Positions 1,403 to 24,708 of a stretch of 26,910 bases of DNA are shown in pieces. The notes under the pieces are model-generated. The model searched no databases, was not told the DNA's origin, and saw only the letters and a program-made list of their open reading frames with translations. Within the stretch, counting starts at the first letter, position 1, and each line of letters opens with the position of its first letter. The position numbers were made by a program, and so were the translations under genes. The stretch is taken from the UHGV virus genome UHGV-0040495; one strand, 5' to 3'. The DNA comes from a virus.

Positions 1403-2434
1403 TTACGCGAATTCTTCCACGATCGCCATGCCAGTAGCACCATCACCACCGGTAAATGCCGTACCGGTAAACCCAAGGTCATACGCGCCACCACCACCGG
1501 ATCCGGGAGCTGCGCCAGCAATACCGGCCTGAGAACCCGCCCGGCCACCGCCGCCAAAATACGACGCCCCACCGTTGCCCGTCAGAAGGCTTGACCCTGT
1601 CTGGCCATCTGAGCCGGTACCACCGTTGATCCTGATATCTCCGGTCGCCGCCGTACCTCCGGCGCCGCCGGCGGTATTGGACACGCCTGACTTCACTCCT
1701 CCTTTCCCGCCAGGAGCTGAGAACAGGCTGGCAAACGAGGTGGCCCCACCATCCGCACCACTTACTGCGCCAACTCCGCCCTTACCACCCTTGCCGACAG
1801 TAATCGCATAAGAACTGGCAGCAGACAGGTCAACCCATACGATAATGGTCGCGCCCGCGCCGCCGCCAGCACCGGAGAAGGTTTCTGTATTGTTGGAGGC
1901 CTGGCAGCCGCCACCGCCGCCACCGGCACCGGTCAACGTTACTTTTGCATAACGGGCCAGAGGAGATCGCGTATAGGTTCCGTTTGCATAGAAAGCTTTT
2001 GGAGCGCCAAGTGAACGCCCGACAAAACCAGAGGAATCAGATATTCCGAGGTTATAACGGGCTTCATTTATCGCATCCTCACCGGCATCTTTAATTTCTG
2101 ACAGGTTATTGCTGATCTGCAGGAATGATAACAATGATCCGGCGGTCATTAAATTCGCGACAATGTCATTCGTTGACCATACGCGTGCCGTAGTTCCTTC
2201 CTGACCACGAATTACTGTCATCACGTCACCGGATACAGACGTGACGTGCATAATTTCAGAAATTGTTTTCGTGGCCGCGTCGGTTATCGTTAATTTGAAA
2301 TAACTCTGCCCAGATACAGGGGAAGGGAATAATGACCCCGCTCCAGTACCCACGGTAATAACGGTAGCGGACGCGCTAATACCCGCAGCGAGCACACTCT
2401 TTGCGTTATTATTGGCTAATAGCTTCAGCGCCAT
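1403..2434 (-). CDS. Tail fibre protein 2: conserved N-terminal anchor domain plus glycine-rich C-terminal domain
   Basis: 343 aa. The N-terminal ~100 aa (MALKLLANNNAKSVLAAGISA...SYFKLTITDAAT...QEGTTARVW..NDIVANLMTA) is paralogous to the N-terminus of the 715-aa fibre at 4143..6290. The C-terminal half is dense in poly-Gly motifs (GAGGGGGGC, GKGGKGG, GGAGGTAATG, GSGGGG). Start has GGGG 7 nt upstream. Confidence 0.6.
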   Translation of the reverse strand: MALKLLANNNAKSVLAAGISASATVITVGTGAGSLFPSPVSGQSYFKLTITDAATKTISEIMHVTSVSGDVMTVIRGQEGTTARVWSTNDIVANLMTAGSLLSFLQISNNLSEIKDAGEDAINEARYNLGISDSSGFVGRSLGAPKAFYANGTYTRSPLARYAKVTLTGAGGGGGGCQASNNTETFSGAGGGAGATIIVWVDLSAASSYAITVGKGGKGGVGAVSGADGGATSFASLFSAPGGKGGVKSGVSNTAGGAGGTAATGDIRINGGTGSDGQTGSSLLTGNGGASYFGGGGRAGSQAGIAGAAPGSGGGGAYDLGFTGTAFTGGDGATGMAIVEEFA

Positions 2435-3381: not shown

Positions 3382-4140
3382 TTATTGCATCGCCAGTAAA
3401 AACTGAGAGACAGATATTTTTTCTGCTGAGGTAAGAATGCCGTTCATCAACAGACAAGACTTAATGTACTTGGTACTTGTTTCGCTGTTGTTATCAGTTT
3501 TTCTACCAAGCAGTACATTATTAGTACCTGCCACCCTGGTCCCGGGAAATGTTTCACTCCCGGAAATAAGAGTTCCAGTTTCAGGATTAAATATATCTAC
3601 TGTAACGGAGCCTTGAGTTATCGATGCGCAAAATGCAAACATATCTCCGACTGCGATTGCGGTTGGGAATGTAGCGTAAGCATAACCAGCTGAAGATTGT
3701 CCGTTATTTTGTCCAACACAAAAAAGACTTCCTGTGCCGTTTGTAAACCCTACCGAAAAACCACTTGCAGCAGACCCACTGCCAGCAAAATCTGCAATCA
3801 TATGGGCGTTAAGTGATGCGCCTGCTGGATTGCGCTTGGCAACCCCACAAACAGATAATGACAGAGTAGCCTTCTGATTAGTATCCATGTAATCTGTTGT
3901 ATTTACAGATATATATCCAGGAGAATTGTTTACATTTCCATGAATGACTGCCGGAGAATCTTTATTATAAGAGTTGTAGGTTATGTCGGTTACGGGGTCC
4001 CCAAAATAGAAACCAGCATAAGGAGTTGCACCTGTGGTTGGCAGGCCAATAAACCAGTTTGACACATCAAAGTCAGATAAAGTTTTCATTCCAGAGATAA
4101 CTGGAAGAGTGGCGTCTATATAAATAGCTGATATCGGCAT
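3382..4140 (-). CDS. Beta-rich Gly/Ser/Thr/Asn-rich protein translationally coupled to the esterase tailspike; possible fibre-associated adhesin or receptor-binding module
   Basis: 252 aa. Start lies 2 nt after the stop of the 715-aa fibre gene. Composition is typical of phage receptor-binding or distal-fibre domains. AT-rich codon usage. Confidence 0.4.
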   Translation of the reverse strand: MPISAIYIDATLPVISGMKTLSDFDVSNWFIGLPTTGATPYAGFYFGDPVTDITYNSYNKDSPAVIHGNVNNSPGYISVNTTDYMDTNQKATLSLSVCGVAKRNPAGASLNAHMIADFAGSGSAASGFSVGFTNGTGSLFCVGQNNGQSSAGYAYATFPTAIAVGDMFAFCASITQGSVTVDIFNPETGTLISGSETFPGTRVAGTNNVLLGRKTDNNSETSTKYIKSCLLMNGILTSAEKISVSQFLLAMQ

Positions 4141-4142
4141 TA

Positions 4143-6290
4143 TTAAGCTCCCAGGAAAAATTCTTTTTTGATCTTTCTCGTTAGTACATATGCGCCCAAG
4201 GCGCTAAGATGCAAGGCATCTTCCCACGCACCTCCTGAACTGCTATACACTTTGGGGAATAATTGATAACCACTAATGAAATTTACATTATATTCAACCG
4301 CTATTTCCCTCATTGCTTTATCGTATTCTGACAGTGCGGGTGTTCCTGTGGCGTTACACTGTGCAGGGGACATAAGGCAAATGCAAATATCAGGAGTTGC
4401 GCTTCTATATTTAGTAATGATTTCAATAATCCCAGATTTGTACTCAGCTAGCCCCTGACTCATCCGGAAGTCATTCGTTCCAAGAATAATAAAAAGGAGG
4501 TCTATATCAAGGTATTGAGCTACTGGCTTTATCCATGATGAAAAGTTGAAATAGTCACTTGCAAATGCTCCTCCATTACCCATCCTGGATACAGTCACCC
4601 CTGATGATATTGAGTTATTTTTACCATACATACCAAGAATGGAAACAACACCAGTACCGGTGCTTTGGATTGTCACCGTATGTGCAGTAGCGCTAAGTCC
4701 GCTGAAATCATACTTCTTGGCAGTCCCTGTATTCCCTCCCGTGATTGTTACAGGTGCATTGCTGTCGATGGTGATGGTGAACGTTCCAGACCCATCATAG
4801 TAAAATACCGAAAGATTTGTTACGGTCACGCCCGTCCATACGAGCGAACCAACAGTGTTGTTGTTGTAGTATCCGTTGCCATCAGGGCCACAGCCATACG
4901 GCGGAATGTTCGTGTTATTGCTGCCACCGTCATATTTCGTAAAGTTTGTTGCGGTTACTGGTGATATTCCAGACATGACACCATCTGTTCTGTTTGAACA
5001 ACTAATCCAGCCAGGGTCTTTGTATGTACCACCAAGAATATTAATTAAAGACTGAGGAATGGTGTTTTTCTCTGTCCACGAATCGCCGGTAAAAGCAATG
5101 TTTAGGCTGGTAGACTGGCCAGCAAAAATACGGCTATTTTTGAAAAGGAACTTGTACTGATCTCCTTCGATGAAGGAACGTACCGCATCAACTTCCCCAC
5201 CAGACACCAGGTTTTTGACATATTCCTGCAATACCGGGCCAAGACCTGGAGCATCGAATAGCCCACCATTAAACCAAGCATATACGTTCCCTTGTTGGTC
5301 ATATAAAAAAGGAAAGTAATAAGGTGAAAAGTCTCCTTGCGGTATAAACTTCTGGGCCCATTCGTTTGGAATTTCAGAAACAACCTGTGTAACATTTGGC
5401 CCCAGTCCGGCCACATCAAATTTTCCGCCATCAAACCATGCTGGCACCATACCATTCCTGTCAAAGAAGGCCGGGAAATAACCAGGCCTGTATTCACCTG
5501 GGACGAGGCGTTCATTAATTTTATTATCGATTGTTTTTGAAGAAGGAGAGATTACTCCTGTAGGCTGCAAAGTTCCGGAGTTGTTTATATATTCATTTGC
5601 AAGAGAGCTATCATCCGCGCTTGTCACCCAGCATTTCGCTCCTGGCTGTATGTTCCCTGCGTCAGCATCAGCCTGTGCCGCAGCCAGCGTCGGAAACTCG
5701 CGGGTTGTCCCTGTTATGGCCGCTGTACCCGGCTGCTTCGCCTGCAGTACGGCCACACCTGCTTTGTTTTGATACTGCCATGCAGCAGAAAGCGCATCTG
5801 GCCCCTGGGCTACCCAGAACGACTGGCCGTCAGTAGTTGCTGCCAGCCCTGCGATGGTGCCATCAGGATCGCTGGCAGTCTTATAGAACGTGAACTTATT
5901 CTGTGCGTAGTCAGAAGCGTTATTTGCAAACTCTTCAGCCTGTGCTGCTGATGCAGCTGCTTGCTGCATGTACTGCGCAATCACATTCAGCGTATCCGCC
6001 GTCATCATGTTGGCAACCATGTCGTTTGCCGCCCACGCACGCGCCAGCGTTCCTTCCTGCGCACGCTCAATCGTGAAGATGTCTCCAGCCTTAGCAGTCA
6101 CGTTCACGATCTCAACCTGTGAGCCGGTGGCGGCATCGGTGAGAGTGAGTTTAAAGTAGCTCTCGCCTGCCACAGCGTCAGGGAACTCGGCACCAGTTCC
6201 AGCGCTAACGATCAGCGACGTGTCGGTTGCGCTGATAGCAGAAGCCAGCGTGCTTTCTGCGTTGTTTGTAGCCAAAAGGGTTAGTGCCAT
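4143..6290 (-). CDS. Tail fibre/tailspike protein 1 with C-terminal SGNH (GDSL-type) esterase domain
   Basis: 715 aa. N-terminal anchor paralogous to fibre 2. C-terminal region carries SGNH blocks: FTGDSW (block I GDS), LGTNDF (block III GxND) and DALHLS (block V DxxH). GGAGG Shine-Dalgarno 5-6 nt upstream of the ATG at 6290. Confidence 0.75.
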   Translation of the reverse strand: MALTLLATNNAESTLASAISATDTSLIVSAGTGAEFPDAVAGESYFKLTLTDAATGSQVEIVNVTAKAGDIFTIERAQEGTLARAWAANDMVANMMTADTLNVIAQYMQQAAASAAQAEEFANNASDYAQNKFTFYKTASDPDGTIAGLAATTDGQSFWVAQGPDALSAAWQYQNKAGVAVLQAKQPGTAAITGTTREFPTLAAAQADADAGNIQPGAKCWVTSADDSSLANEYINNSGTLQPTGVISPSSKTIDNKINERLVPGEYRPGYFPAFFDRNGMVPAWFDGGKFDVAGLGPNVTQVVSEIPNEWAQKFIPQGDFSPYYFPFLYDQQGNVYAWFNGGLFDAPGLGPVLQEYVKNLVSGGEVDAVRSFIEGDQYKFLFKNSRIFAGQSTSLNIAFTGDSWTEKNTIPQSLINILGGTYKDPGWISCSNRTDGVMSGISPVTATNFTKYDGGSNNTNIPPYGCGPDGNGYYNNNTVGSLVWTGVTVTNLSVFYYDGSGTFTITIDSNAPVTITGGNTGTAKKYDFSGLSATAHTVTIQSTGTGVVSILGMYGKNNSISSGVTVSRMGNGGAFASDYFNFSSWIKPVAQYLDIDLLFIILGTNDFRMSQGLAEYKSGIIEIITKYRSATPDICICLMSPAQCNATGTPALSEYDKAMREIAVEYNVNFISGYQLFPKVYSSSGGAWEDALHLSALGAYVLTRKIKKEFFLGA
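5235..5492 (-). repeat. Internal tandem duplication (two ~31-aa repeats) within tail fibre 1
   Basis: YRPGYFPAFFDRNGMVPAWFDGGKFDVAGLGP (aa ~267-297) and FSPYYFPFLYDQQGNVYAWFNGGLFDAPGLGP (aa ~322-352) share the pattern YFP..D..G.V.AWF.GG.FD..GLGP. Confidence 0.55.
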
Positions 6291-6358: not shown

Positions 6359-6991
6359 TTAATATGCATTTCGTATCGTTGTTGTTGCATCATCAATTCC
6401 GTTCTTGCTTAGAATCCAACATGATCTTGCAACATCAGCAAATTGACTTCTTACTTCAGGTGATAACCCTGGCTCTTGGTTAACGTCATTTAACATTTGC
6501 TCCAAAGAAATACCTCGCCTCTGACCGATACCAGCAGCACGGCAAAGGTTCCTTATATACAAATCAAACTCAGCTTGGTCATATTTATTTCTGGCCATAA
6601 CCAAGTAATAAACGCTATTGAGTTCATTCGATGCATTCATTACTTCCCTGCTTCTAACACATGAAACGTCTTTGTCGCACTTCTGATTATTTAGCCTATC
6701 AACCTCTTTTGAATAGTAATCATAAGTGCAACTTTCATCTTTTGAGTTGAAGCAGGTTAAAACAAGACCATTAAGAAATGCTTCATTCTCGCCATTCAAA
6801 CCAATTAACTCATTCCTTATTTTGGGGAAATTTTGCAATTGACCATTATATGATGGCATCCATTTAATTAAGGCATCTCTTTTTTCTTGCAAAGTTTCAG
6901 CAGAAGAAAAATCTCTAGATTTTTTATAAGCATTCGTTCCACATCCAGCAAGAAAAAATGAAATTGTTAATACAAGTATCATTCTTTTCAT
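6359..6991 (-). CDS. Cysteine-rich lipoprotein (moron-encoded); candidate superinfection-exclusion or envelope factor
   Basis: 210 aa. N-terminal MKRMILVLTISFFLAGCG is a signal peptide with lipobox L-A-G-C. Mature part has several Cys. AT-rich gene flanked by its own promoter-like element and terminator, inserted between baseplate and tail-fibre genes. Confidence 0.75.
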   Translation of the reverse strand: MKRMILVLTISFFLAGCGTNAYKKSRDFSSAETLQEKRDALIKWMPSYNGQLQNFPKIRNELIGLNGENEAFLNGLVLTCFNSKDESCTYDYYSKEVDRLNNQKCDKDVSCVRSREVMNASNELNSVYYLVMARNKYDQAEFDLYIRNLCRAAGIGQRRGISLEQMLNDVNQEPGLSPEVRSQFADVARSCWILSKNGIDDATTTIRNAY

Positions 6992-7752: not shown

Positions 7753-9171
7753 CTATGCCCCTGTTACGATCACGCCATCCGACGCGATATAAAAATAACT
7801 GAACTTATCGCCGCTGATGATATTCGTCCCGGCATCCGGTGGCGTTATCACACCATTGATGGTGACCACGACGTTTAGAGTGCTGATCAGCCCCATGTCG
7901 ATTGTCGAGTTAATCGCCTGTAAGAATGCGTCTTTCAGGTTGTTAACGTTCAGCGGTTTCCCGGCGAATATGCCGTTCACATACTGAATCGTAGGCGCCG
8001 AGACCAGAGAGGCGACAGTGGCGTCAGTCAGGTAGTTAACGCTTTCGGTACCCCACTGATACGTCACTGTGACGCGCTGCAGCAATGGCGTCACGAACGG
8101 GATCACGTAGTTATCAGGCCAGTCATTCACCGTCACAGTATTGTTTCTGACGTTCGGCGTCACCTCGCCGCCGCCTCCCCAGGTCCCGGATGACGTGGTA
8201 TCAATCCCGATGGAAAAAGTGTGAGGAGACAGTACCGTCACGGTCAGAGGAACGTCATTAATGCCCGTCATCCCGGTAACGCCAGTGATCCGGATAACCT
8301 GGCCGTCAGTGTAGCCATGAGTCAGGTCTGTGCTGACGACGCCAGGATTTGCATTCGTGATCCCCGTTACGTTCAGTGAACACCCTTTCAGCCGGCTGAT
8401 ATCCCCCGCCGACTTATAGAGCGCGCCAGCAATATCGTAAACATCACCGCCTGCGCACATGACTATCCACTTATCCCCGTCCTGAATAACAGAAACCAGG
8501 CGCGCCTGCACGTTATCAAGGCTGGTGAGATGTTGCCGGATAAATCCAGGATATCCCTGAACTGTGGACATCTGAGCCTGCCATACTCGATCACGAAACT
8601 GATAATTCGTTTCCGGGTCAGCACCAGGAGTGCCGGCGATCGGGTTGGTGCAGGTAATGGTGACGTCAGAAGGAAGACTGGTGATTATCTGGTTAACCGT
8701 ATTTGCCGGTACTGCCCAAGTACCGGTCTCCGTTCCTTCGCATGACACACTGGCAGACACACCGGACGAGGAGATTATCGTCGCATCACTAACGGAATAC
8801 GTATGTGTGCCATCAGAAACAATAAAACCTTGTGGGATGACAAACCCAGCCGGGCCGGAAAACTGAATCGGTACCGTGGTAGTGCCAGCAGTTTTCTGGC
8901 CCGGGATACCTGCCTGCTGTGCGAGAAGCTCCAGCATGGCGAGGTTAGCCTTTAACGGACCCACTGAGTTAATCAGATCAACCCTCGCCTGATCGCAGAC
9001 GATAAGTGCGCCGACATCAGTGCTGGCCACGTCTTCAATCAGAGAGCCAGGCAAATCAGTTGTGAGTCCCGGAGATAGCGCAATAGCTTGGGAAACGAGC
9101 TGTGCTCGTAGCTCTTCCGCCGTCAGAGGAACCGGGCCCGCTGACGTATAGCTGACTGGTAAATCGCTCAT
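7753..9171 (-). CDS. Baseplate J-like (gp47/gpJ family) wedge protein
   Basis: 472 aa, a size and position typical for baseplate J. Start overlaps the upstream gene by 4 nt. Confidence 0.6.
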   Translation of the reverse strand: MSDLPVSYTSAGPVPLTAEELRAQLVSQAIALSPGLTTDLPGSLIEDVASTDVGALIVCDQARVDLINSVGPLKANLAMLELLAQQAGIPGQKTAGTTTVPIQFSGPAGFVIPQGFIVSDGTHTYSVSDATIISSSGVSASVSCEGTETGTWAVPANTVNQIITSLPSDVTITCTNPIAGTPGADPETNYQFRDRVWQAQMSTVQGYPGFIRQHLTSLDNVQARLVSVIQDGDKWIVMCAGGDVYDIAGALYKSAGDISRLKGCSLNVTGITNANPGVVSTDLTHGYTDGQVIRITGVTGMTGINDVPLTVTVLSPHTFSIGIDTTSSGTWGGGGEVTPNVRNNTVTVNDWPDNYVIPFVTPLLQRVTVTYQWGTESVNYLTDATVASLVSAPTIQYVNGIFAGKPLNVNNLKDAFLQAINSTIDMGLISTLNVVVTINGVITPPDAGTNIISGDKFSYFYIASDGVIVTGA

Positions 9172-15186: not shown

Positions 15187-16581
15187 TTACGCCCCTACAA
15201 AGTTCGTTACGTTCACGTTAAACGTGATGGATTCGAAGCCGCGGCGCGGCGTCATGACGGCGCTCAGCCCGTTATATTTTCCTTCCTGGTAATCGGAGGG
15301 GTTCAGGCTGTTGTAGTTACTGAACGGCACGGCGTTGATCACGGCGTTGCCGGCGTAAGTGCCTTTGTCATACTCGGTGTTGAAATCTTCCTGCGTCAGT
15401 TGCGTGTCGATGACGCGACCGAGGATCAGCCCGTAGCTGATGCCATTACGCATGGTTTTCAGAGCGCGACGCTGCAGGCGGTCAATGCCCTTCTGCTCGT
15501 AGTACAGCGGGTTAACGGTCGTGTTGGAGCCGTTGATGATTTCATTCGCCAGGTCGAGCTCAAGGTTGATCGCCGTCCACGCCACCGAATACCAGTAGTT
15601 GAACGGGTTACCGTCGAGCATGCGGCCGGTGAACAGCACTTTGTTACTGAGACCACCTTCGGCGCCGGTACCGATGTAGTTGATGTTGCTGTTCTGAAGC
15701 GATTTCAGCAGTGCGCTGTTGCCTTCCAGCGGATACTCAGTCAGGCCGTACATAAAGCGGTACGACATCGGCGGCACCATGTTGCTCGACCCCGGGTCGT
15801 TTGCCAGGGATGACTGGAACGGGCCGGCCATGGAAAACTCGCTAGCCGGAATATCCGGAGCCTCGACGCCAGCAAAGACAGTTTTGTTTTTCGTCGCTGT
15901 CCACGCTTCATAGGTCGCGATCGTTGTGGTGACAAAGAAGTAAACCAGACTTCCCGGCGAAGTATAGAGGCTGGTCAGGGTTTTAAATTCATCGACCGAA
16001 TCCCATTCGCGCGGCACCAGATAGGAGAAAAACTTCTGGTAGGTGTTACCCAGGGAGACGTCTTCAGCAATGAAGGTTGTCAGCGCTGCGACAGCTGCCT
16101 CCATGGACACATCGCCCAGTTCCAGCACATAAACAGCCCGCGTTTTACCCTGGGCCCAGAACGAAGTATTCATCTGGGAAATTTCGGTCTGCACTACCGT
16201 TTTTACCGTTCCCATTGCCGTTGCGGTTCCTGGGTTGGTCGTCAGCGGATAGGTGAAGGTGTTGGCTCCTGTCACCGTAGCGGTATAGGCGCCATTGTAC
16301 CCCGCCGGAGTCGCGCCGGAGATGATCACCGGGACCTGCGACCCGTTAGCCCATCCGTGAGCGGCAGCCAGCGTGACGGTTACCACGCCAGTAGCCCAGG
16401 CGAGCGTCGAGATGGTTTTCGCCGGTGCAAGGATGTCGGCCAGGTCGGTTTCACTGGTCAGCAGCTGATATTCACCGGCATTCAGCGTCGTGCCGCCCAT
16501 AGAAATCATCGCCCCGGACTTTAACAACTGCGAGGGCTTCGGCGGATTCGTCACCGACACGTTAATATTAACAATTGCCAT
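15187..16581 (-). CDS. Tail sheath protein
   Basis: 464 aa, a size and position typical of contractile-tail sheath, followed by the tube gene. Confidence 0.65.
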   Translation of the reverse strand: MAIVNINVSVTNPPKPSQLLKSGAMISMGGTTLNAGEYQLLTSETDLADILAPAKTISTLAWATGVVTVTLAAAHGWANGSQVPVIISGATPAGYNGAYTATVTGANTFTYPLTTNPGTATAMGTVKTVVQTEISQMNTSFWAQGKTRAVYVLELGDVSMEAAVAALTTFIAEDVSLGNTYQKFFSYLVPREWDSVDEFKTLTSLYTSPGSLVYFFVTTTIATYEAWTATKNKTVFAGVEAPDIPASEFSMAGPFQSSLANDPGSSNMVPPMSYRFMYGLTEYPLEGNSALLKSLQNSNINYIGTGAEGGLSNKVLFTGRMLDGNPFNYWYSVAWTAINLELDLANEIINGSNTTVNPLYYEQKGIDRLQRRALKTMRNGISYGLILGRVIDTQLTQEDFNTEYDKGTYAGNAVINAVPFSNYNSLNPSDYQEGKYNGLSAVMTPRRGFESITFNVNVTNFVGA

Positions 16582-22465: not shown

Positions 22466-23296
22466 CTATGCTGCTTTCATGGACTCCAGGAACTTGCGGC
22501 CCTTCTGGGTCAGCATGTCCTCTGGAATGCTGCGGAGGTTGTACAGATAGGTGACGTAGCACCGACAGAAAACCTCTTCGCCAGGCTGCGTAATTTCGTC
22601 GAGATAGCCGGCATGGCCAGCTTTGACATAGCCATTTTTCTGCGCCCAGTTACCGCGGATGAGATAGACCAGCTTGTCACGCTCCTTGTGGTCTTCCCGG
22701 TAGTCATACCCTGGCTGGCGCCAGTGGCTATGCCATTCGGCAGCAATCGCGTTATTGCTCGTCGCGATGATGTTGTCGATATTGGCGATCAGCTTATGGC
22801 TCTGGTCAATCATCACGCGGCGCGCTTCGTAGTCCACCTGCTCAGCACTCTTCTGAATGTGCTGGGCGTTTGCCACAATGCCACTTCGCGACGATGCAGA
22901 CAGACCGCCACCGACATAATCCTGCACCGGTATGCTGGTTGCCCAACCACTGAAACGCTGAACGGTTTTGTTGATCGCCGCGGTGCGATTCAGCTTTATC
23001 AGGTCAGCGCTGGCCAGGATGCGGCGATCCAGCTCGCTGCGTAACTTCGGCTCCATGTAGTTCAGCGTGAAGCGTGAAAGCCCCTTGTGGCGCTCCAGCG
23101 CTCCAGCCTTGCTCACCTGCAGGTCATAGGTCTTACGCAACCGATCGGACACCATGCTCATGTAGTCGTCATCAGTTTCGCTTTCGGCCGCTTGCCGGAT
23201 AATGGCCTGCCATTGCTCCAGCTCCTGCCGCGAGGTGTAGCCATTGCGCAGAAAGAACTTCACCGCCTCGCGTACGGTGCGCGTGAAAGTCTTCAT
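22466..23296 (-). CDS. Head morphogenesis protein (Mu gpF / SPP1 gp7-like position)
   Basis: 276 aa, immediately downstream of the portal gene with a 4-nt overlap. Confidence 0.5.
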   Translation of the reverse strand: MKTFTRTVREAVKFFLRNGYTSRQELEQWQAIIRQAAESETDDDYMSMVSDRLRKTYDLQVSKAGALERHKGLSRFTLNYMEPKLRSELDRRILASADLIKLNRTAAINKTVQRFSGWATSIPVQDYVGGGLSASSRSGIVANAQHIQKSAEQVDYEARRVMIDQSHKLIANIDNIIATSNNAIAAEWHSHWRQPGYDYREDHKERDKLVYLIRGNWAQKNGYVKAGHAGYLDEITQPGEEVFCRCYVTYLYNLRSIPEDMLTQKGRKFLESMKAA

Positions 23297-24708
23297 AGCA
23301 TCATCCCGCCGCCGGGCTCTTCATCCCGTGGCTGTTCAGGCCGATTAGCCTTTAGAGAGTCGATATCGAGATCGAGCCGCTGCGGGAACAGGCTTTCGTT
23401 AGCGTTCGCGTTGGTCTGCGCCCACTCGATAAGCAGAGCGCGGTTCTCATCATCCGTGTTGACCTGTGGAAGCAGCACTTCCAGCATGCTGACGATCGCC
23501 TTAAACCGGATTTCGTCGACCTTCACTTTTTCGCTTTCCGGCTCTTTCAGGGATGACGGCCAGCGATATTCGAAGTTGTTAATCCATGAGGAGAAGTACA
23601 GGCTGTAGGTGTTTTTCAGCTCCGGAAAGTCAGCACGCAGAGAATTGAAAAACTCAATGCTCCATGCGCGATACTGGCAAATACGGATGAAATAGTCATA
23701 CAGAGGCTCAAGCCACTCGCGGATGTTGTCGATGTAGACTGCAACAGATCGAGCGTCTTCCGTACCCTCGCCGAAGCCCTGAGCGAATGTTTCCGAGTTC
23801 AGAATGATAGCCGGCATGTCAGCTGCCGCAGCGATATTCTCCAGAATGTGATTCCGGGAGGAGTCGAGCGGCTTTTCCAGGTTGCTCAGGTCGATGGATT
23901 CGATGCTGTCATTTGCGCCGATCTGCAGGACCTCGCCTGTCTTCCCTCGCTTCAGCATCATTCGTTTGATGCCGCTGAGCTTTTGCATCATGTTGTTGAC
24001 GACTGAGCTCGGTCCCTGAATCTTCGTTACCAGCAAGCCACCCTTCACGGAAACCATGTCATCGGTGCGCATGGTCTGGATGAAGGATTTCAGCGGGAAC
24101 AGCGCGCGCTGGTAAACGCTGCGACCGGTAAAGCCAAAGGCAGCAGAGTTATAGGCCAGATAAATCGGGTCCTCGTTCTGTTGCACGACGCAGCGGGATT
24201 TGTGATACGGCTTGCCAGCCACTCTAATCCCGTCGACCTTCTGGAAGTCCTGCGCGTTCGGATCCTGGTTCAGGACGATGCTTCCGGCAGTGTTCAGCGG
24301 GTCGAGAATGTTGAATGTCACGTTGTGCTTATACAGCGTGCGGTAGTCCACCGCAGAGGACGGCTCCTGGTTATCAACCAGCATTGCGATCGCCGAAACA
24401 CCGTAAATGCGAGAGATGCGCGCCGCATTAGCGATGTGCTTATCGGCGCCCAGTGCTTTCCACTCCCGCTCAAATGCATCGCGGAGACGCTGCTCAATGC
24501 CATACGCCTGCGAAATGTGAACCGTGCGCGACTCGTTCATCGCCATCTTGATCGGGCGATCTACCATTTTCCCGCCCAACGGGTGGAAGAGGTAAATCGT
24601 TTTGCAGGTCTGATAGCCAGCCGACATACCCGGCTGAATGTCATCGCTGTCCAGGAGCGTGATCAGCTCCGGCGAGCAACTGCCGATTGCGATATCATCT
24701 TCGTTCAT
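23293..24708 (-). CDS. Portal protein
   Basis: 471 aa, directly downstream of the terminase large subunit. Size and position typical of portal. Confidence 0.65.
   Translation of the reverse strand: MNEDDIAIGSCSPELITLLDSDDIQPGMSAGYQTCKTIYLFHPLGGKMVDRPIKMAMNESRTVHISQAYGIEQRLRDAFEREWKALGADKHIANAARISRIYGVSAIAMLVDNQEPSSAVDYRTLYKHNVTFNILDPLNTAGSIVLNQDPNAQDFQKVDGIRVAGKPYHKSRCVVQQNEDPIYLAYNSAAFGFTGRSVYQRALFPLKSFIQTMRTDDMVSVKGGLLVTKIQGPSSVVNNMMQKLSGIKRMMLKRGKTGEVLQIGANDSIESIDLSNLEKPLDSSRNHILENIAAAADMPAIILNSETFAQGFGEGTEDARSVAVYIDNIREWLEPLYDYFIRICQYRAWSIEFFNSLRADFPELKNTYSLYFSSWINNFEYRWPSSLKEPESEKVKVDEIRFKAIVSMLEVLLPQVNTDDENRALLIEWAQTNANANESLFPQRLDLDIDSLKANRPEQPRDEEPGGGMML

What the first reader, a model, noticed from the sequence alone, without database searches (positions are those of the whole stretch)
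4143..5155. Tailspike carries a C-terminal SGNH (GDSL-type) esterase domain with intact catalytic blocks
The C-terminal third contains FTGDSW (block I with the nucleophilic Ser), LGTNDF (block III, GxND) and DALHLS (block V, Asp-x-x-His), in the correct order and spacing for an SGNH hydrolase. Esterase tailspikes are known in a few phages, where they deacetylate O-antigen rather than cleave glycosidic bonds. This predicts an O-acetylated surface polysaccharide as the receptor and an enzymatic, non-depolymerising adsorption mechanism.
Basis: partly seen in the sequence, partly recalled or inferred. Interest (0 to 1): 0.55.

Follow-up and report, generated by a model that had tools for sequence, protein, structure and literature searches.

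The report
Prophage tail fibre with esterase tip
The gene encodes a prophage tail fibre that ends in an acetyl-esterase-type (SGNH) domain with all catalytic residues intact; this is real, but it belongs to a common class of phage receptor-binding proteins that is already annotated and described.

Summary
ORF 4143..6290 (-), 715 aa, contains FTGDSW (aa 400-405), LGTNDF (603-608) and DALHLS (691-696).

The evidence for an SGNH domain:
- Pfam PF13472 scores above its gathering threshold.
- S404, G571, N606 and H694 are 98-100% conserved in 145 cluster representatives. D691 is 94% conserved.
- An AF2 model (pLDDT 86) matches SGNH esterases.

The protein is a tail fibre, not a beta-helix tailspike. 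It lies in an E. coli prophage at tRNA-Arg that is ~95% identical to Klebsiella phage Chronis. RefSeq already names it "SGNH/GDSL hydrolase family protein". A 2026 paper showed such fibres are the most prevalent enzymatic receptor-binding domain in Klebsiella prophages and assayed two as esterases.

The likely target is an acetylated surface glycan, plausibly the host's Klebsiella-type capsule rather than its O9 O-antigen. This is inferred. The capsule locus has no acetyltransferase.

Verdict: an ordinary new member of a known kind.

The parts
4143..6290 (-). Tail-fibre gene, 715 aa plus stop codon; identical to RefSeq WP_106495254.1 'SGNH/GDSL hydrolase family protein'
   Evidence: ORF list. 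100% DNA match to annotated CDS in E. coli genomes. phrog_14987 E=2.7e-172 over aa 131-713.
5937..6290 (-). N-terminal virion/baseplate attachment domain (aa 1-118)
   Evidence: Matches PDB 8jov chain 1 'Putative tail fiber protein', aa 8-118, E=6e-10. 57% identical over 101 aa to the N-terminus of the second fibre ORF 1403..2434. Tail-fibre PHROGs 8469 and 30299.
5511..5900 (-). Conserved neck (aa 131-260), including the junction module aa 196-254 where C-terminal cassettes are exchanged
   Evidence: PHROG tail-fibre families 38670, 4201 and 19652. 90% identity to Chronis gp23 over aa 1-258, with divergence beginning around aa 215 and no similarity after 258. 53% identity over aa 196-254 to the assayed esterase fibre 164_08-KL2.
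5208..5498 (-). Two tandem ~43-aa shaft repeats (aa 265-307 and 319-361)
   Evidence: Local alignment score 117 against 25.5 +/- 5.3 (max 50) for 500 shuffles.
5013..5108 (-). SGNH segment 1 (aa 395-426): first beta-strand, block I FTGDSW (aa 400-405, window 5076-5093; nucleophile S404, codon 5079-5081) and first helix
   Evidence: Motif positions. GDSW invariant in 31 homologues. Ser 145/145 in representatives. Model strand 16-23 and helix 31-40.
4611..5012 (-). Inserted beta-sandwich (CBM35-like) domain, aa ~427-560
4146..4610 (-). SGNH segment 2 (aa 561-715). Block II MGNGG (aa 570-574, window 4569-4583; G571). Block III LGTNDF (aa 603-608, window 4467-4484; N606). Block V DALHLS (aa 691-696, window 4203-4220; D691, H694).
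   Evidence: Pfam PF13472 aa 589-700, E=2e-10. Conservation G571 142/145, N606 144/145, D691 137/145, H694 144/145. Profile alignment to Ape1 blocks II, III and V.
3382..4140 (-). 252-aa gene starting 2 nt after the fibre's stop codon; likely cognate partner (assembly factor or accessory subunit) of this cassette, function unknown
   Evidence: phrog_34046. Unrelated to Chronis gp24 in the same slot. A 75%-identical homologue follows the homologous SGNH fibre in K. pneumoniae with the same 2-nt spacing. The AF2 model was poor (pLDDT 57).
1403..2434 (-). Second receptor-binding protein (343 aa) with the same N-terminal anchor and a glycine-rich C-terminal domain
   Evidence: 57% identity over aa 1-101. 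PF21722 E=8.5e-14. Tail-fibre PHROGs. Same arrangement in Chronis gp26.

Best explanation
The gene encodes one of two tail fibres of a temperate, Klebsiella-phage-like prophage inserted at tRNA-Arg(CCT) in E. coli.

From N- to C-terminus the protein has:
- a baseplate-attachment domain (aa 1-118);
- a conserved neck that ends in a recombination junction (aa ~196-254);
- two shaft repeats;
- a C-terminal enzymatic cassette (aa ~395-715).

The cassette is an SGNH hydrolase split after block I by a CBM35-like beta-sandwich. This is the architecture of the O-acetylesterase Ape1, in which loops of the inserted domain line the active-site cleft.

The proposed catalytic residues are S404 (nucleophile), H694 and D691 (triad), and the G571 backbone NH plus the N606 side chain (oxyanion hole).

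On the virion, the cassette most likely binds a host surface polysaccharide and removes O-acetyl groups from it without cutting the backbone. This would let the phage dock on or move through the glycan layer.

The most plausible substrate is the host's Klebsiella-type group-1 capsule or another acetylated envelope glycan, rather than the O9 polymannan.

Shown: gene, motifs, fold, conservation and genomic context. Inferred: triad geometry, esterase activity, substrate and role in adsorption.
For: Domain and fold:
- Motifs are present in order.
- PF13472 scores above its gathering threshold.
- AF2 model pLDDT 86, pTM 0.88.
- Foldseek E~1e-17 to 1e-18, TM 0.69-0.79.
- A profile of the family hits Ape1 best among PDB sequences (E=2.6e-5). 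In the significant stretches GTND aligns to GSND and the block V His to His, and in the N. meningitidis alignment MGNG aligns to MGING. GDSW aligns to GDSH only in a separate stretch that is not significant on its own.

Spacing:
- S->G->N->H is 167/35/88 aa here and 164/33/99 in CjApe1, whose residues S73, G237, N270 and H369 are experimentally defined (preprint 10.1101/2021.09.23.461501).

Conservation and distribution:
- In 145 representatives of 50%-identity clusters: Ser 145, His 144, Asn 144, Gly 142, Asp 137.
- The module lies within 10 aa of the C-terminus in 141 of 144 proteins.
- 1040 clusters match at E<=1e-3.

Fibre identity:
- N-terminal match to a solved tail-fibre protein.
- Tail-fibre PHROGs.
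- Position after the baseplate-J gene.
- ~95% DNA identity over 79% of the structural region to Klebsiella phage Chronis.

Function by analogy:
- SGNH receptor-binding proteins deacetylate host polysaccharide in G7C and in Possum (PMC9569702).
- Two Klebsiella prophage SGNH fibres hydrolyse pNP-acetate (PMC13123978).

Substrate hint:
- The host has an O9-family O-antigen locus and a Klebsiella-type wzi-wza-wzb-wzc-wcaJ...wzx capsule locus.
- Among isolated phages, only Klebsiella phages carry the cassette: 12 of 50,697 records.
- At least 25 of 31 E. coli chromosomes carrying the cassette at >=99% identity have that capsule locus, against 126 of 5426 genomes overall.
Against: - No activity data exist for this cassette family. 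The two assayed Klebsiella fibres have different esterase domains. 164_08-KL2 shares only the 59-aa junction module with this protein.
- I could not obtain model coordinates, so the triad distances were not measured. pLDDT around the catalytic loops is only 68-82.
- Pfam covers only blocks III and V, and NCBIfam gives no hit.
- The six K-type-specific genes of the host's capsule locus contain no acetyltransferase domain.
- To my knowledge (not checked here) the O9 polymannan is not O-acetylated. The acetylated substrate is therefore unidentified.
- The association between capsule locus and cassette is confounded by clonal descent. Many carriers have strain names pointing to one lineage.
- D691 is Asn in about 4-13% of homologues.
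Confidence: 0.72

Rival explanations
1. The SGNH module is a lipase or lysophospholipase-type enzyme, or an esterase for non-acetyl acyl groups. It would act on outer-membrane lipids or on lipid A/LPS acyl chains to help penetration, not on polysaccharide O-acetyl groups.
Confidence: 0.08
2. The module is mainly a binding (lectin-like) domain. It recognises the glycan, and catalysis is dispensable or vestigial for infection.
For: Some homologues have Asn in place of the triad Asp: 4 of 31 and 6 of 145. The CBM-like insertion could bind sugar on its own. In the Klebsiella study SGNH fibres were, on average, less K-locus-specific than depolymerases.
Against: The nucleophile Ser, the His and the oxyanion Asn/Gly are 98-100% conserved across lineages down to <30% identity. 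This indicates selection on catalysis. Assayed relatives of the class are active. According to the Klebsiella paper's account of it, deacetylation is essential for G7C infectivity.
Confidence: 0.1
3. By analogy with Ape1, the enzyme is a peptidoglycan O-acetylesterase that helps cell-wall penetration.
For: The best structural and sequence matches in the PDB are Ape1 enzymes.
Against: Identity to Ape1 is only 14-18%. The module is at the tip of a fibre, not in the tail-tip or tape-measure complex, and the prophage already has a lytic-transglycosylase-domain protein, which I take to be the tape measure from its position. From general knowledge, not tested here, E. coli and Klebsiella peptidoglycan is not O-acetylated. 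The family occurs almost only as the C-terminal end of long fibre-like proteins.
Confidence: 0.03
4. The gene is an inert remnant in a defective prophage, so the domain has no current role.
For: It lies in a chromosome and there are no expression data. The two fibre genes sharing one anchor could reflect past recombination debris.
Against: The ORF is intact and identical in many genomes. The whole structural module is present and ~95% identical to the isolated phage Chronis, which has the same two-fibre layout. One strain also has a 47.9-kb separate replicon carrying the cassette. The catalytic residues are conserved.
Confidence: 0.07

Closest known systems
Klebsiella prophage and phage SGNH-domain tail fibres (PLoS Biol 2026, PMC13123978); closest sequences are 'SGNH/GDSL hydrolase family protein' of Klebsiella spp. 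and the tail fibres of Klebsiella phages VLCpiM5b, Sin4, K59PH2 and KYP
   Same: Same cassette. It is 58-79% identical to many Klebsiella prophage proteins of ~570-590 aa, 80% to VLCpiM5b and 62% to Sin4. It is likewise at the C-terminal end of a fibre, with the same junction module. The class has been shown to be esterase-active on pNP-acetate.
   Different: The host here is E. coli. The N-terminal ~130 aa anchor differs from that of the ~580-aa Klebsiella proteins. The two proteins actually assayed carry other esterase domains: 164_08-KL2 shares only aa 196-254 with this protein, and its type of cassette is the one found in the sister phage Chronis gp23. This particular cassette family has therefore not been assayed, as far as the papers I read show.
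Ape1, O-acetylpeptidoglycan esterase of Neisseria and Campylobacter (PDB 4K3U, 8GKD/8GLD)
   Different: 14-18% identity. Ape1 is a free periplasmic enzyme with a signal peptide that acts on MurNAc 6-O-acetyl. Here the module is fused to the end of a phage fibre and meets surface glycans. CjApe1 has D-x-H (D367, H369); this protein has D-x-x-H.
Phage G7C tailspike gp63.1 (PDB 4QNL), the first esterase receptor-binding protein shown to deacetylate O-antigen
   Same: A virion receptor-binding protein with an SGNH catalytic domain. Proposed mode of action: deacetylation without depolymerisation.
Other characterised SGNH deacetylase receptor-binding proteins: Pectobacterium phages Possum gp66 and PP99, Acinetobacter phage Aristophanes; solved fibre SFP21A Gp09 (PDB 9LNA)
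   Same: An SGNH domain within a fibre or spike. Possum gp66 was shown by NMR to remove 2-O-acetyl from rhamnose of the O-polysaccharide (PMC9569702).

Membership tests
SGNH/GDSL hydrolase superfamily (Pfam PF13472 Lipase_GDSL_2) | Block I GDS(x) with the nucleophilic Ser near the N-terminus of the domain | tested here: met
   FTGDSW aa 400-405. GDSW invariant in 31 homologues. Ser 145/145.
SGNH/GDSL hydrolase superfamily (Pfam PF13472 Lipase_GDSL_2) | Block II Gly and block III GxND Asn (oxyanion hole) | tested here: met
   MGNGG aa 570-574 and LGTNDF aa 603-608. G571 142/145 and N606 144/145.
SGNH/GDSL hydrolase superfamily (Pfam PF13472 Lipase_GDSL_2) | Block V DxxH (Asp and His of the triad) | tested here: met
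   DALH aa 691-694. H694 144/145 and D691 137/145, otherwise mostly Asn.
SGNH/GDSL hydrolase superfamily (Pfam PF13472 Lipase_GDSL_2) | Profile score above the curated threshold | tested here: met
   41.9 bits against 32.9, E=2e-10. Only profile positions 63-176 of 178 align, because of the insertion. PF00657 is below its cut-off.
SGNH/GDSL hydrolase superfamily (Pfam PF13472 Lipase_GDSL_2) | [quoted passage not shown] | tested here: met
SGNH/GDSL hydrolase superfamily (Pfam PF13472 Lipase_GDSL_2) | Ser-His-Asp within hydrogen-bonding distance in three dimensions | tested here: inconclusive
   Coordinates of the model are not available to the script tool. The inference rests only on the superposition on Ape1 and on sequence alignment of the blocks. 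pLDDT of the catalytic loops is 68-82.
SGNH/GDSL hydrolase superfamily (Pfam PF13472 Lipase_GDSL_2) | Esterase activity | not testable with these tools
   Needs pNP-acetate and native-substrate assays.
Ape1-type two-domain O-acetylesterases | CBM35-like beta-sandwich inserted in the SGNH fold between the block I helix and the block II strand | tested here: met
   Model residues 48-178 are all-beta, lying between helix 31-40 and strand 185-193. 315 of 336 residues superpose on 8GLD. CjApe1 domain limits are given.
Ape1-type two-domain O-acetylesterases | Free periplasmic enzyme acting on O-acetylated peptidoglycan | tested here: not met
   The module is the C-terminal part of a 715-aa phage fibre with no signal peptide. 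The substrate was not tested. The protein is therefore not filed as an Ape1 orthologue, only as sharing its architecture.
Phage esterase (deacetylase) receptor-binding proteins | Virion tail fibre or spike: attachment domain plus location in the tail/baseplate gene block | tested here: met
   N-terminal match to a solved tail-fibre protein. Tail-fibre PHROGs. The gene follows the baseplate-J-like genes. Synteny with phage Chronis gp23.
Phage esterase (deacetylase) receptor-binding proteins | Removes O-acetyl groups from the host surface polysaccharide without depolymerising it | not testable with these tools
   Only analogy with G7C, Possum and the Klebsiella prophage fibres.
G7C gp63.1 family in the strict sense | Detectable sequence homology or close structural match of the esterase domain to gp63.1 | tested here: not met

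The most novel reading that the evidence does not exclude
The Ape1-like esterase cassette is a capsule-directed receptor module that moved, together with its 252-aa partner gene, from Klebsiella phages into a phage of an E. coli lineage that itself carries a Klebsiella-type capsule locus. In this reading phage host range follows the capsule across genera. Because that capsule locus encodes no acetyltransferase, the enzyme would then act either on acetyl groups added by an unlinked or prophage-borne acetyltransferase, or on a different ester substituent. This would be a substrate class not yet described for phage SGNH fibres.
Probability: 0.2. Interest if true: 0.5.

Novelty: new member of a known kind. 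Interest (0 to 1): 0.22.

Why it matters
If the fibre is active, this prophage recognises its host by editing a surface sugar (removing acetyl groups) rather than by cutting it. That mechanism affects host-range prediction, serotype-specific phage therapy and capsule typing, because acetylation is invisible to locus-based typing.

The value of this case is modest. It extends a class now known to be common in Klebsiella prophages to a clinically relevant E. coli lineage: several carriers bear carbapenemase-related strain names. It also shows that this cassette family shares its whole two-domain architecture with the bacterial enzyme Ape1.

It does not open a new question.

Tried and rejected
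- NCBIfam scan of the fibre and its neighbours gave no hits.
- The AF2 model of the 252-aa downstream protein was too poor (pLDDT 57) to justify a fold search. I used the last fold search on the viral library for the esterase module instead.
- I searched the supplements of PMC13123978 for GDSWTE/TGDSW, to link this cassette to one of the paper's capsule-type predictors. Nothing was found. Sequences there are cut at ~400 aa.
- A text search for PDB code 8JOV found no relevant paper, so I describe that entry only by its depositor's name.
- PDB sequence searches with the 464-aa ORF 15187..16581 (a guessed sheath candidate) and with the baseplate-J protein did not help to place the phage.
- I looked for the inverted repeats of a possible invertible fibre segment in the Klebsiella locus L006. 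There were only two short, unconvincing pairs, and the contig ends close by.
- The test of association between capsule locus and cassette gave at least 25 of 31 carriers. I reject it as proof because of clonal relatedness, and six carriers could not be resolved from the 60-row listings.
- I considered and rejected peptidoglycan de-O-acetylation, acyltransferase activity (there is no acyl donor outside the cell) and a lipase role. See the rival explanations.
- The literature search for the capsule type of the host lineage was uninformative.
- Model coordinates are not exposed to scripts, so the triad geometry could not be measured.
Full report
**1. The observation**

The region lies in ORF 4143..6290 on the minus strand (715 aa).
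- FTGDSW, aa 400-405 (window 5076-5093).
- LGTNDF, aa 603-608 (window 4467-4484).
- DALHLS, aa 691-696 (window 4203-4220).

The finding's range 4143-5155 corresponds to aa 379-715.

The ordered pattern GDS...GxND...DxxH, with generous spacing, occurs once in all six frames of the window, in this ORF. Pfam PF13472 (Lipase_GDSL_2) scores 41.9 bits against a gathering score of 32.9 (E=2e-10).

Two points were missed:
- Block II is present as MGNGG (aa 570-574).
- The spacing is not canonical. Block I lies 167 residues before block II. For that reason the Pfam profile aligns only aa 589-700 (profile positions 63-176 of 178). NCBIfam gives nothing.

**2. Anatomy of the esterase module**

I aligned aa 380-715 with 30 homologues of 33-79% identity. 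GDSW, MGNG, GTND and H694 are invariant. D691 is Asp in 27 and Asn in 4.

An exhaustive HMMER search of 1.84 billion cluster representatives found 1040 clusters at E<=1e-3, 357 at <=1e-10 and 106 at <=1e-30. In the best 145 (each under 50% identical to the others), conservation is:

| Residue | Conserved |
|---|---|
| S404 | 145/145 |
| H694 | 144/145 |
| N606 | 144/145 |
| G571 | 142/145 |
| D691 | 137/145 |

In 141 of 144 of these proteins the module ends within 10 residues of the C-terminus. The proteins are mostly 500-1600 aa long.

AlphaFold2 with this alignment gave pLDDT 86 and pTM 0.88. The model has a beta-strand and helix carrying block I, then an all-beta segment (model residues 48-178, protein aa ~427-557), then the rest of an alpha/beta fold.

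Fold searches gave:
- Foldseek against the PDB: best matches are the peptidoglycan O-acetylesterase Ape1 of N. meningitidis (4K3U) and C. jejuni (8GKD/8GLD), E~1e-17 to 1e-18, TM 0.69-0.79 over the whole query.

A sequence profile of the family also finds Ape1 first in the PDB (E=2.6e-5). Its significant stretches align GTND to GSND and the block V His to His, and the N. meningitidis alignment also pairs MGNG with MGING. GDSW pairs with GDSH only in a separate stretch that is not significant on its own.

In CjApe1 the catalytic residues are S73, G237, N270, D367 and H369. A CBM35 domain (I94-T222) is inserted in the SGNH fold, and its loops contribute to the active-site cleft (preprint 10.1101/2021.09.23.461501). 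A review makes the same point for NmApe1 (PMC9487903). The Ser->Gly->Asn->His spacing is 164/33/99 there and 167/35/88 here.

The module is therefore an SGNH esterase of the Ape1 architecture. I could not obtain model coordinates, so the triad distances are inferred and not measured.

**3. The rest of the protein**

- aa 8-118 match a solved 'Putative tail fiber protein' (8jov, E=6e-10).
- aa 1-260 hit several PHROG tail-fibre families, and phrog_14987 covers aa 131-713.
- aa 265-307 and 319-361 are a tandem repeat, score 117 against 25.5 +/- 5.3 for shuffles.

There is no beta-helix. This is a fibre with a terminal enzyme, not a tailspike.

**4. Surroundings**

The window starts with tRNA-Arg(CCT) and an integrase, so this is the end of a prophage. 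In RefSeq E. coli genomes the identical gene is WP_106495254.1, already named 'SGNH/GDSL hydrolase family protein' or 'GDSL-type esterase/lipase family protein'. It lies after the baseplate-J-like genes of a prophage next to intS.

The structural region is ~95% identical over 79% of its length to Klebsiella phage vB_Kpn_Chronis.

Chronis gp23 is 90% identical over aa 1-258. Divergence begins around aa 215, and there is no similarity after aa 258. Its C-terminal part is 52% identical over 338 aa to the assayed Klebsiella fibre 164_08-KL2. The window's protein shares only the 59-aa junction module (aa 196-254, 53% identity) with 164_08-KL2. The fibre is thus a mosaic in which different esterase cassettes are exchanged behind a conserved junction. 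Other related E. coli prophages have a 'sialate O-acetylesterase' in the same slot.

The 252-aa gene that starts 2 nt after the fibre's stop codon has no similarity to Chronis gp24. A 75%-identical homologue follows the homologous SGNH fibre in K. pneumoniae with the same spacing. It therefore travels with the cassette.

A second fibre gene (1403..2434) shares the N-terminal 101 aa (57% identity) and ends in a glycine-rich domain. Chronis has the same pair.

**5. Likely substrate**

One carrier genome has an O9-family O-antigen locus (wzm, wzt, wbdA). Between galF and gnd it has a Klebsiella-type group-1 capsule locus (PAP2, wzi, wza, wzb, wzc, wcaJ ... wzx), and it has no colanic-acid locus. 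The closest relatives of its Wzy-like protein are in Klebsiella and Raoultella.

Among 50,697 isolated phage records, only 12 carry this cassette, and all are Klebsiella phages. The nearest proteins are overwhelmingly from Klebsiella prophages.

At least 25 of the 31 E. coli chromosomes that carry the cassette at >=99% identity hold this capsule locus, which occurs in 126 of 5426 genomes overall. Many carriers look clonal, so this is only suggestive.

Against a simple story, none of the six K-type-specific genes has an acetyltransferase domain. Which ester is removed remains open.

**6. What is already known**

SGNH esterase receptor-binding proteins are established:
- G7C gp63.1 deacetylates O-antigen (cited).
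- Possum gp66 removes 2-O-acetyl from rhamnose (PMC9569702).
[quoted passage not shown] It showed that two such fibres hydrolyse pNP-acetate (PMC13123978).

Neither text mentions Ape1 or an inserted CBM. That resemblance is a small addition.

**7. Verdict**

The label 'tailspike', the statement on spacing and the rarity claim need correction. The receptor prediction is plausible but unproven, and it points at least as much to a capsule as to O-antigen.

This is a new member of a known and already annotated kind. Interest is low to moderate.

Noticed in passing
window 1403-2434 (-): A second receptor-binding protein (343 aa) shares the first 101 aa (57% identity) with the SGNH fibre but ends in a glycine-rich domain (PF21722). 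Two fibres with one anchor type suggest mixed or alternative decoration of the same baseplate site. Phage Chronis has the same pair (gp23/gp26).
   Followed up: partly
window 3382-4140 (-); L006 6001-6759: A 252-aa protein of unknown function begins 2 nt after the fibre's stop codon. It is unrelated to the protein in the same slot of Chronis, but it is conserved (75% identity) behind the homologous SGNH fibre in K. pneumoniae. It therefore co-varies with the esterase cassette and may be a chaperone or a subunit. The AF2 model was poor (pLDDT 57).
   Followed up: partly
L006 3605-8636 (K. pneumoniae contig FLCY01000012.1): Here the homologous SGNH fibre sits next to a DNA invertase (phrog_125). 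It faces an oppositely oriented 363-aa ORF equal to the C-terminal half of a tail-fibre family (phrog_4201, positions 337-674), plus a 244-aa partner. The layout resembles the Mu G segment for switching fibre tips. No convincing crossover repeats were found, and the contig ends nearby.
   Followed up: partly
window 6359-6991 (-): A 210-aa ORF with a lipoprotein signal (MKRMILVLTISFFLAGC; weak LPAM_1 hit; phrog_26209) lies between the baseplate genes and the fibre gene. The slot is variable. The argW prophage of NZ_CP149850 has a different 133-aa ORF on the other strand, while a second prophage copy near bioA/ybhB in NZ_CP185938 has this lipoprotein. It may be a superinfection-exclusion moron.
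   Followed up: partly
window 7753-9171 (-): The baseplate-J-like protein carries an inserted ubiquitin-activating-enzyme E1 FCCH-type domain (PF16190, E=4e-14; PDB E1 hits at aa 265-340).
   Followed up: no
NZ_CP141750.1 (47,948 bp, listed as a plasmid), positions 22491-23501: One carrier strain also has a separate 47.9-kb replicon with a 95.9%-identical copy of the cassette. Several genomes hold 2-3 copies in different prophages. This could be a phage-plasmid or an excised circular prophage.
   Followed up: no
L003 (NZ_CP149850.1 1818274-1837150) and L002: The E. coli host combines an O9-family polymannan O-antigen locus with a Klebsiella-type group-1 capsule locus and lacks the colanic-acid locus. 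The capsule locus contains a beta-helix-repeat protein but no acetyltransferase.
   Followed up: partly
window 5208-5498 (-), aa 265-361: Two tandem ~43-aa repeats (G-x-x-x-P-x-YFP...AWF-x-GG-x-FD...GLGP) form the shaft just before the esterase module. The consensus of the Klebsiella homologues in alignment A1 shows a comparable duplicated motif.
   Followed up: partly
L004 5899-8448 (Chronis gp23); E. coli hits H77 and H79: The sister phage Chronis, and some related E. coli prophages, carry a different esterase cassette in the same fibre slot: the 164_08-KL2 type in Chronis, and proteins annotated 'sialate O-acetylesterase' in the prophages. In this phage lineage, fibres seem to swap one esterase for another rather than esterase for depolymerase.
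   Followed up: partly
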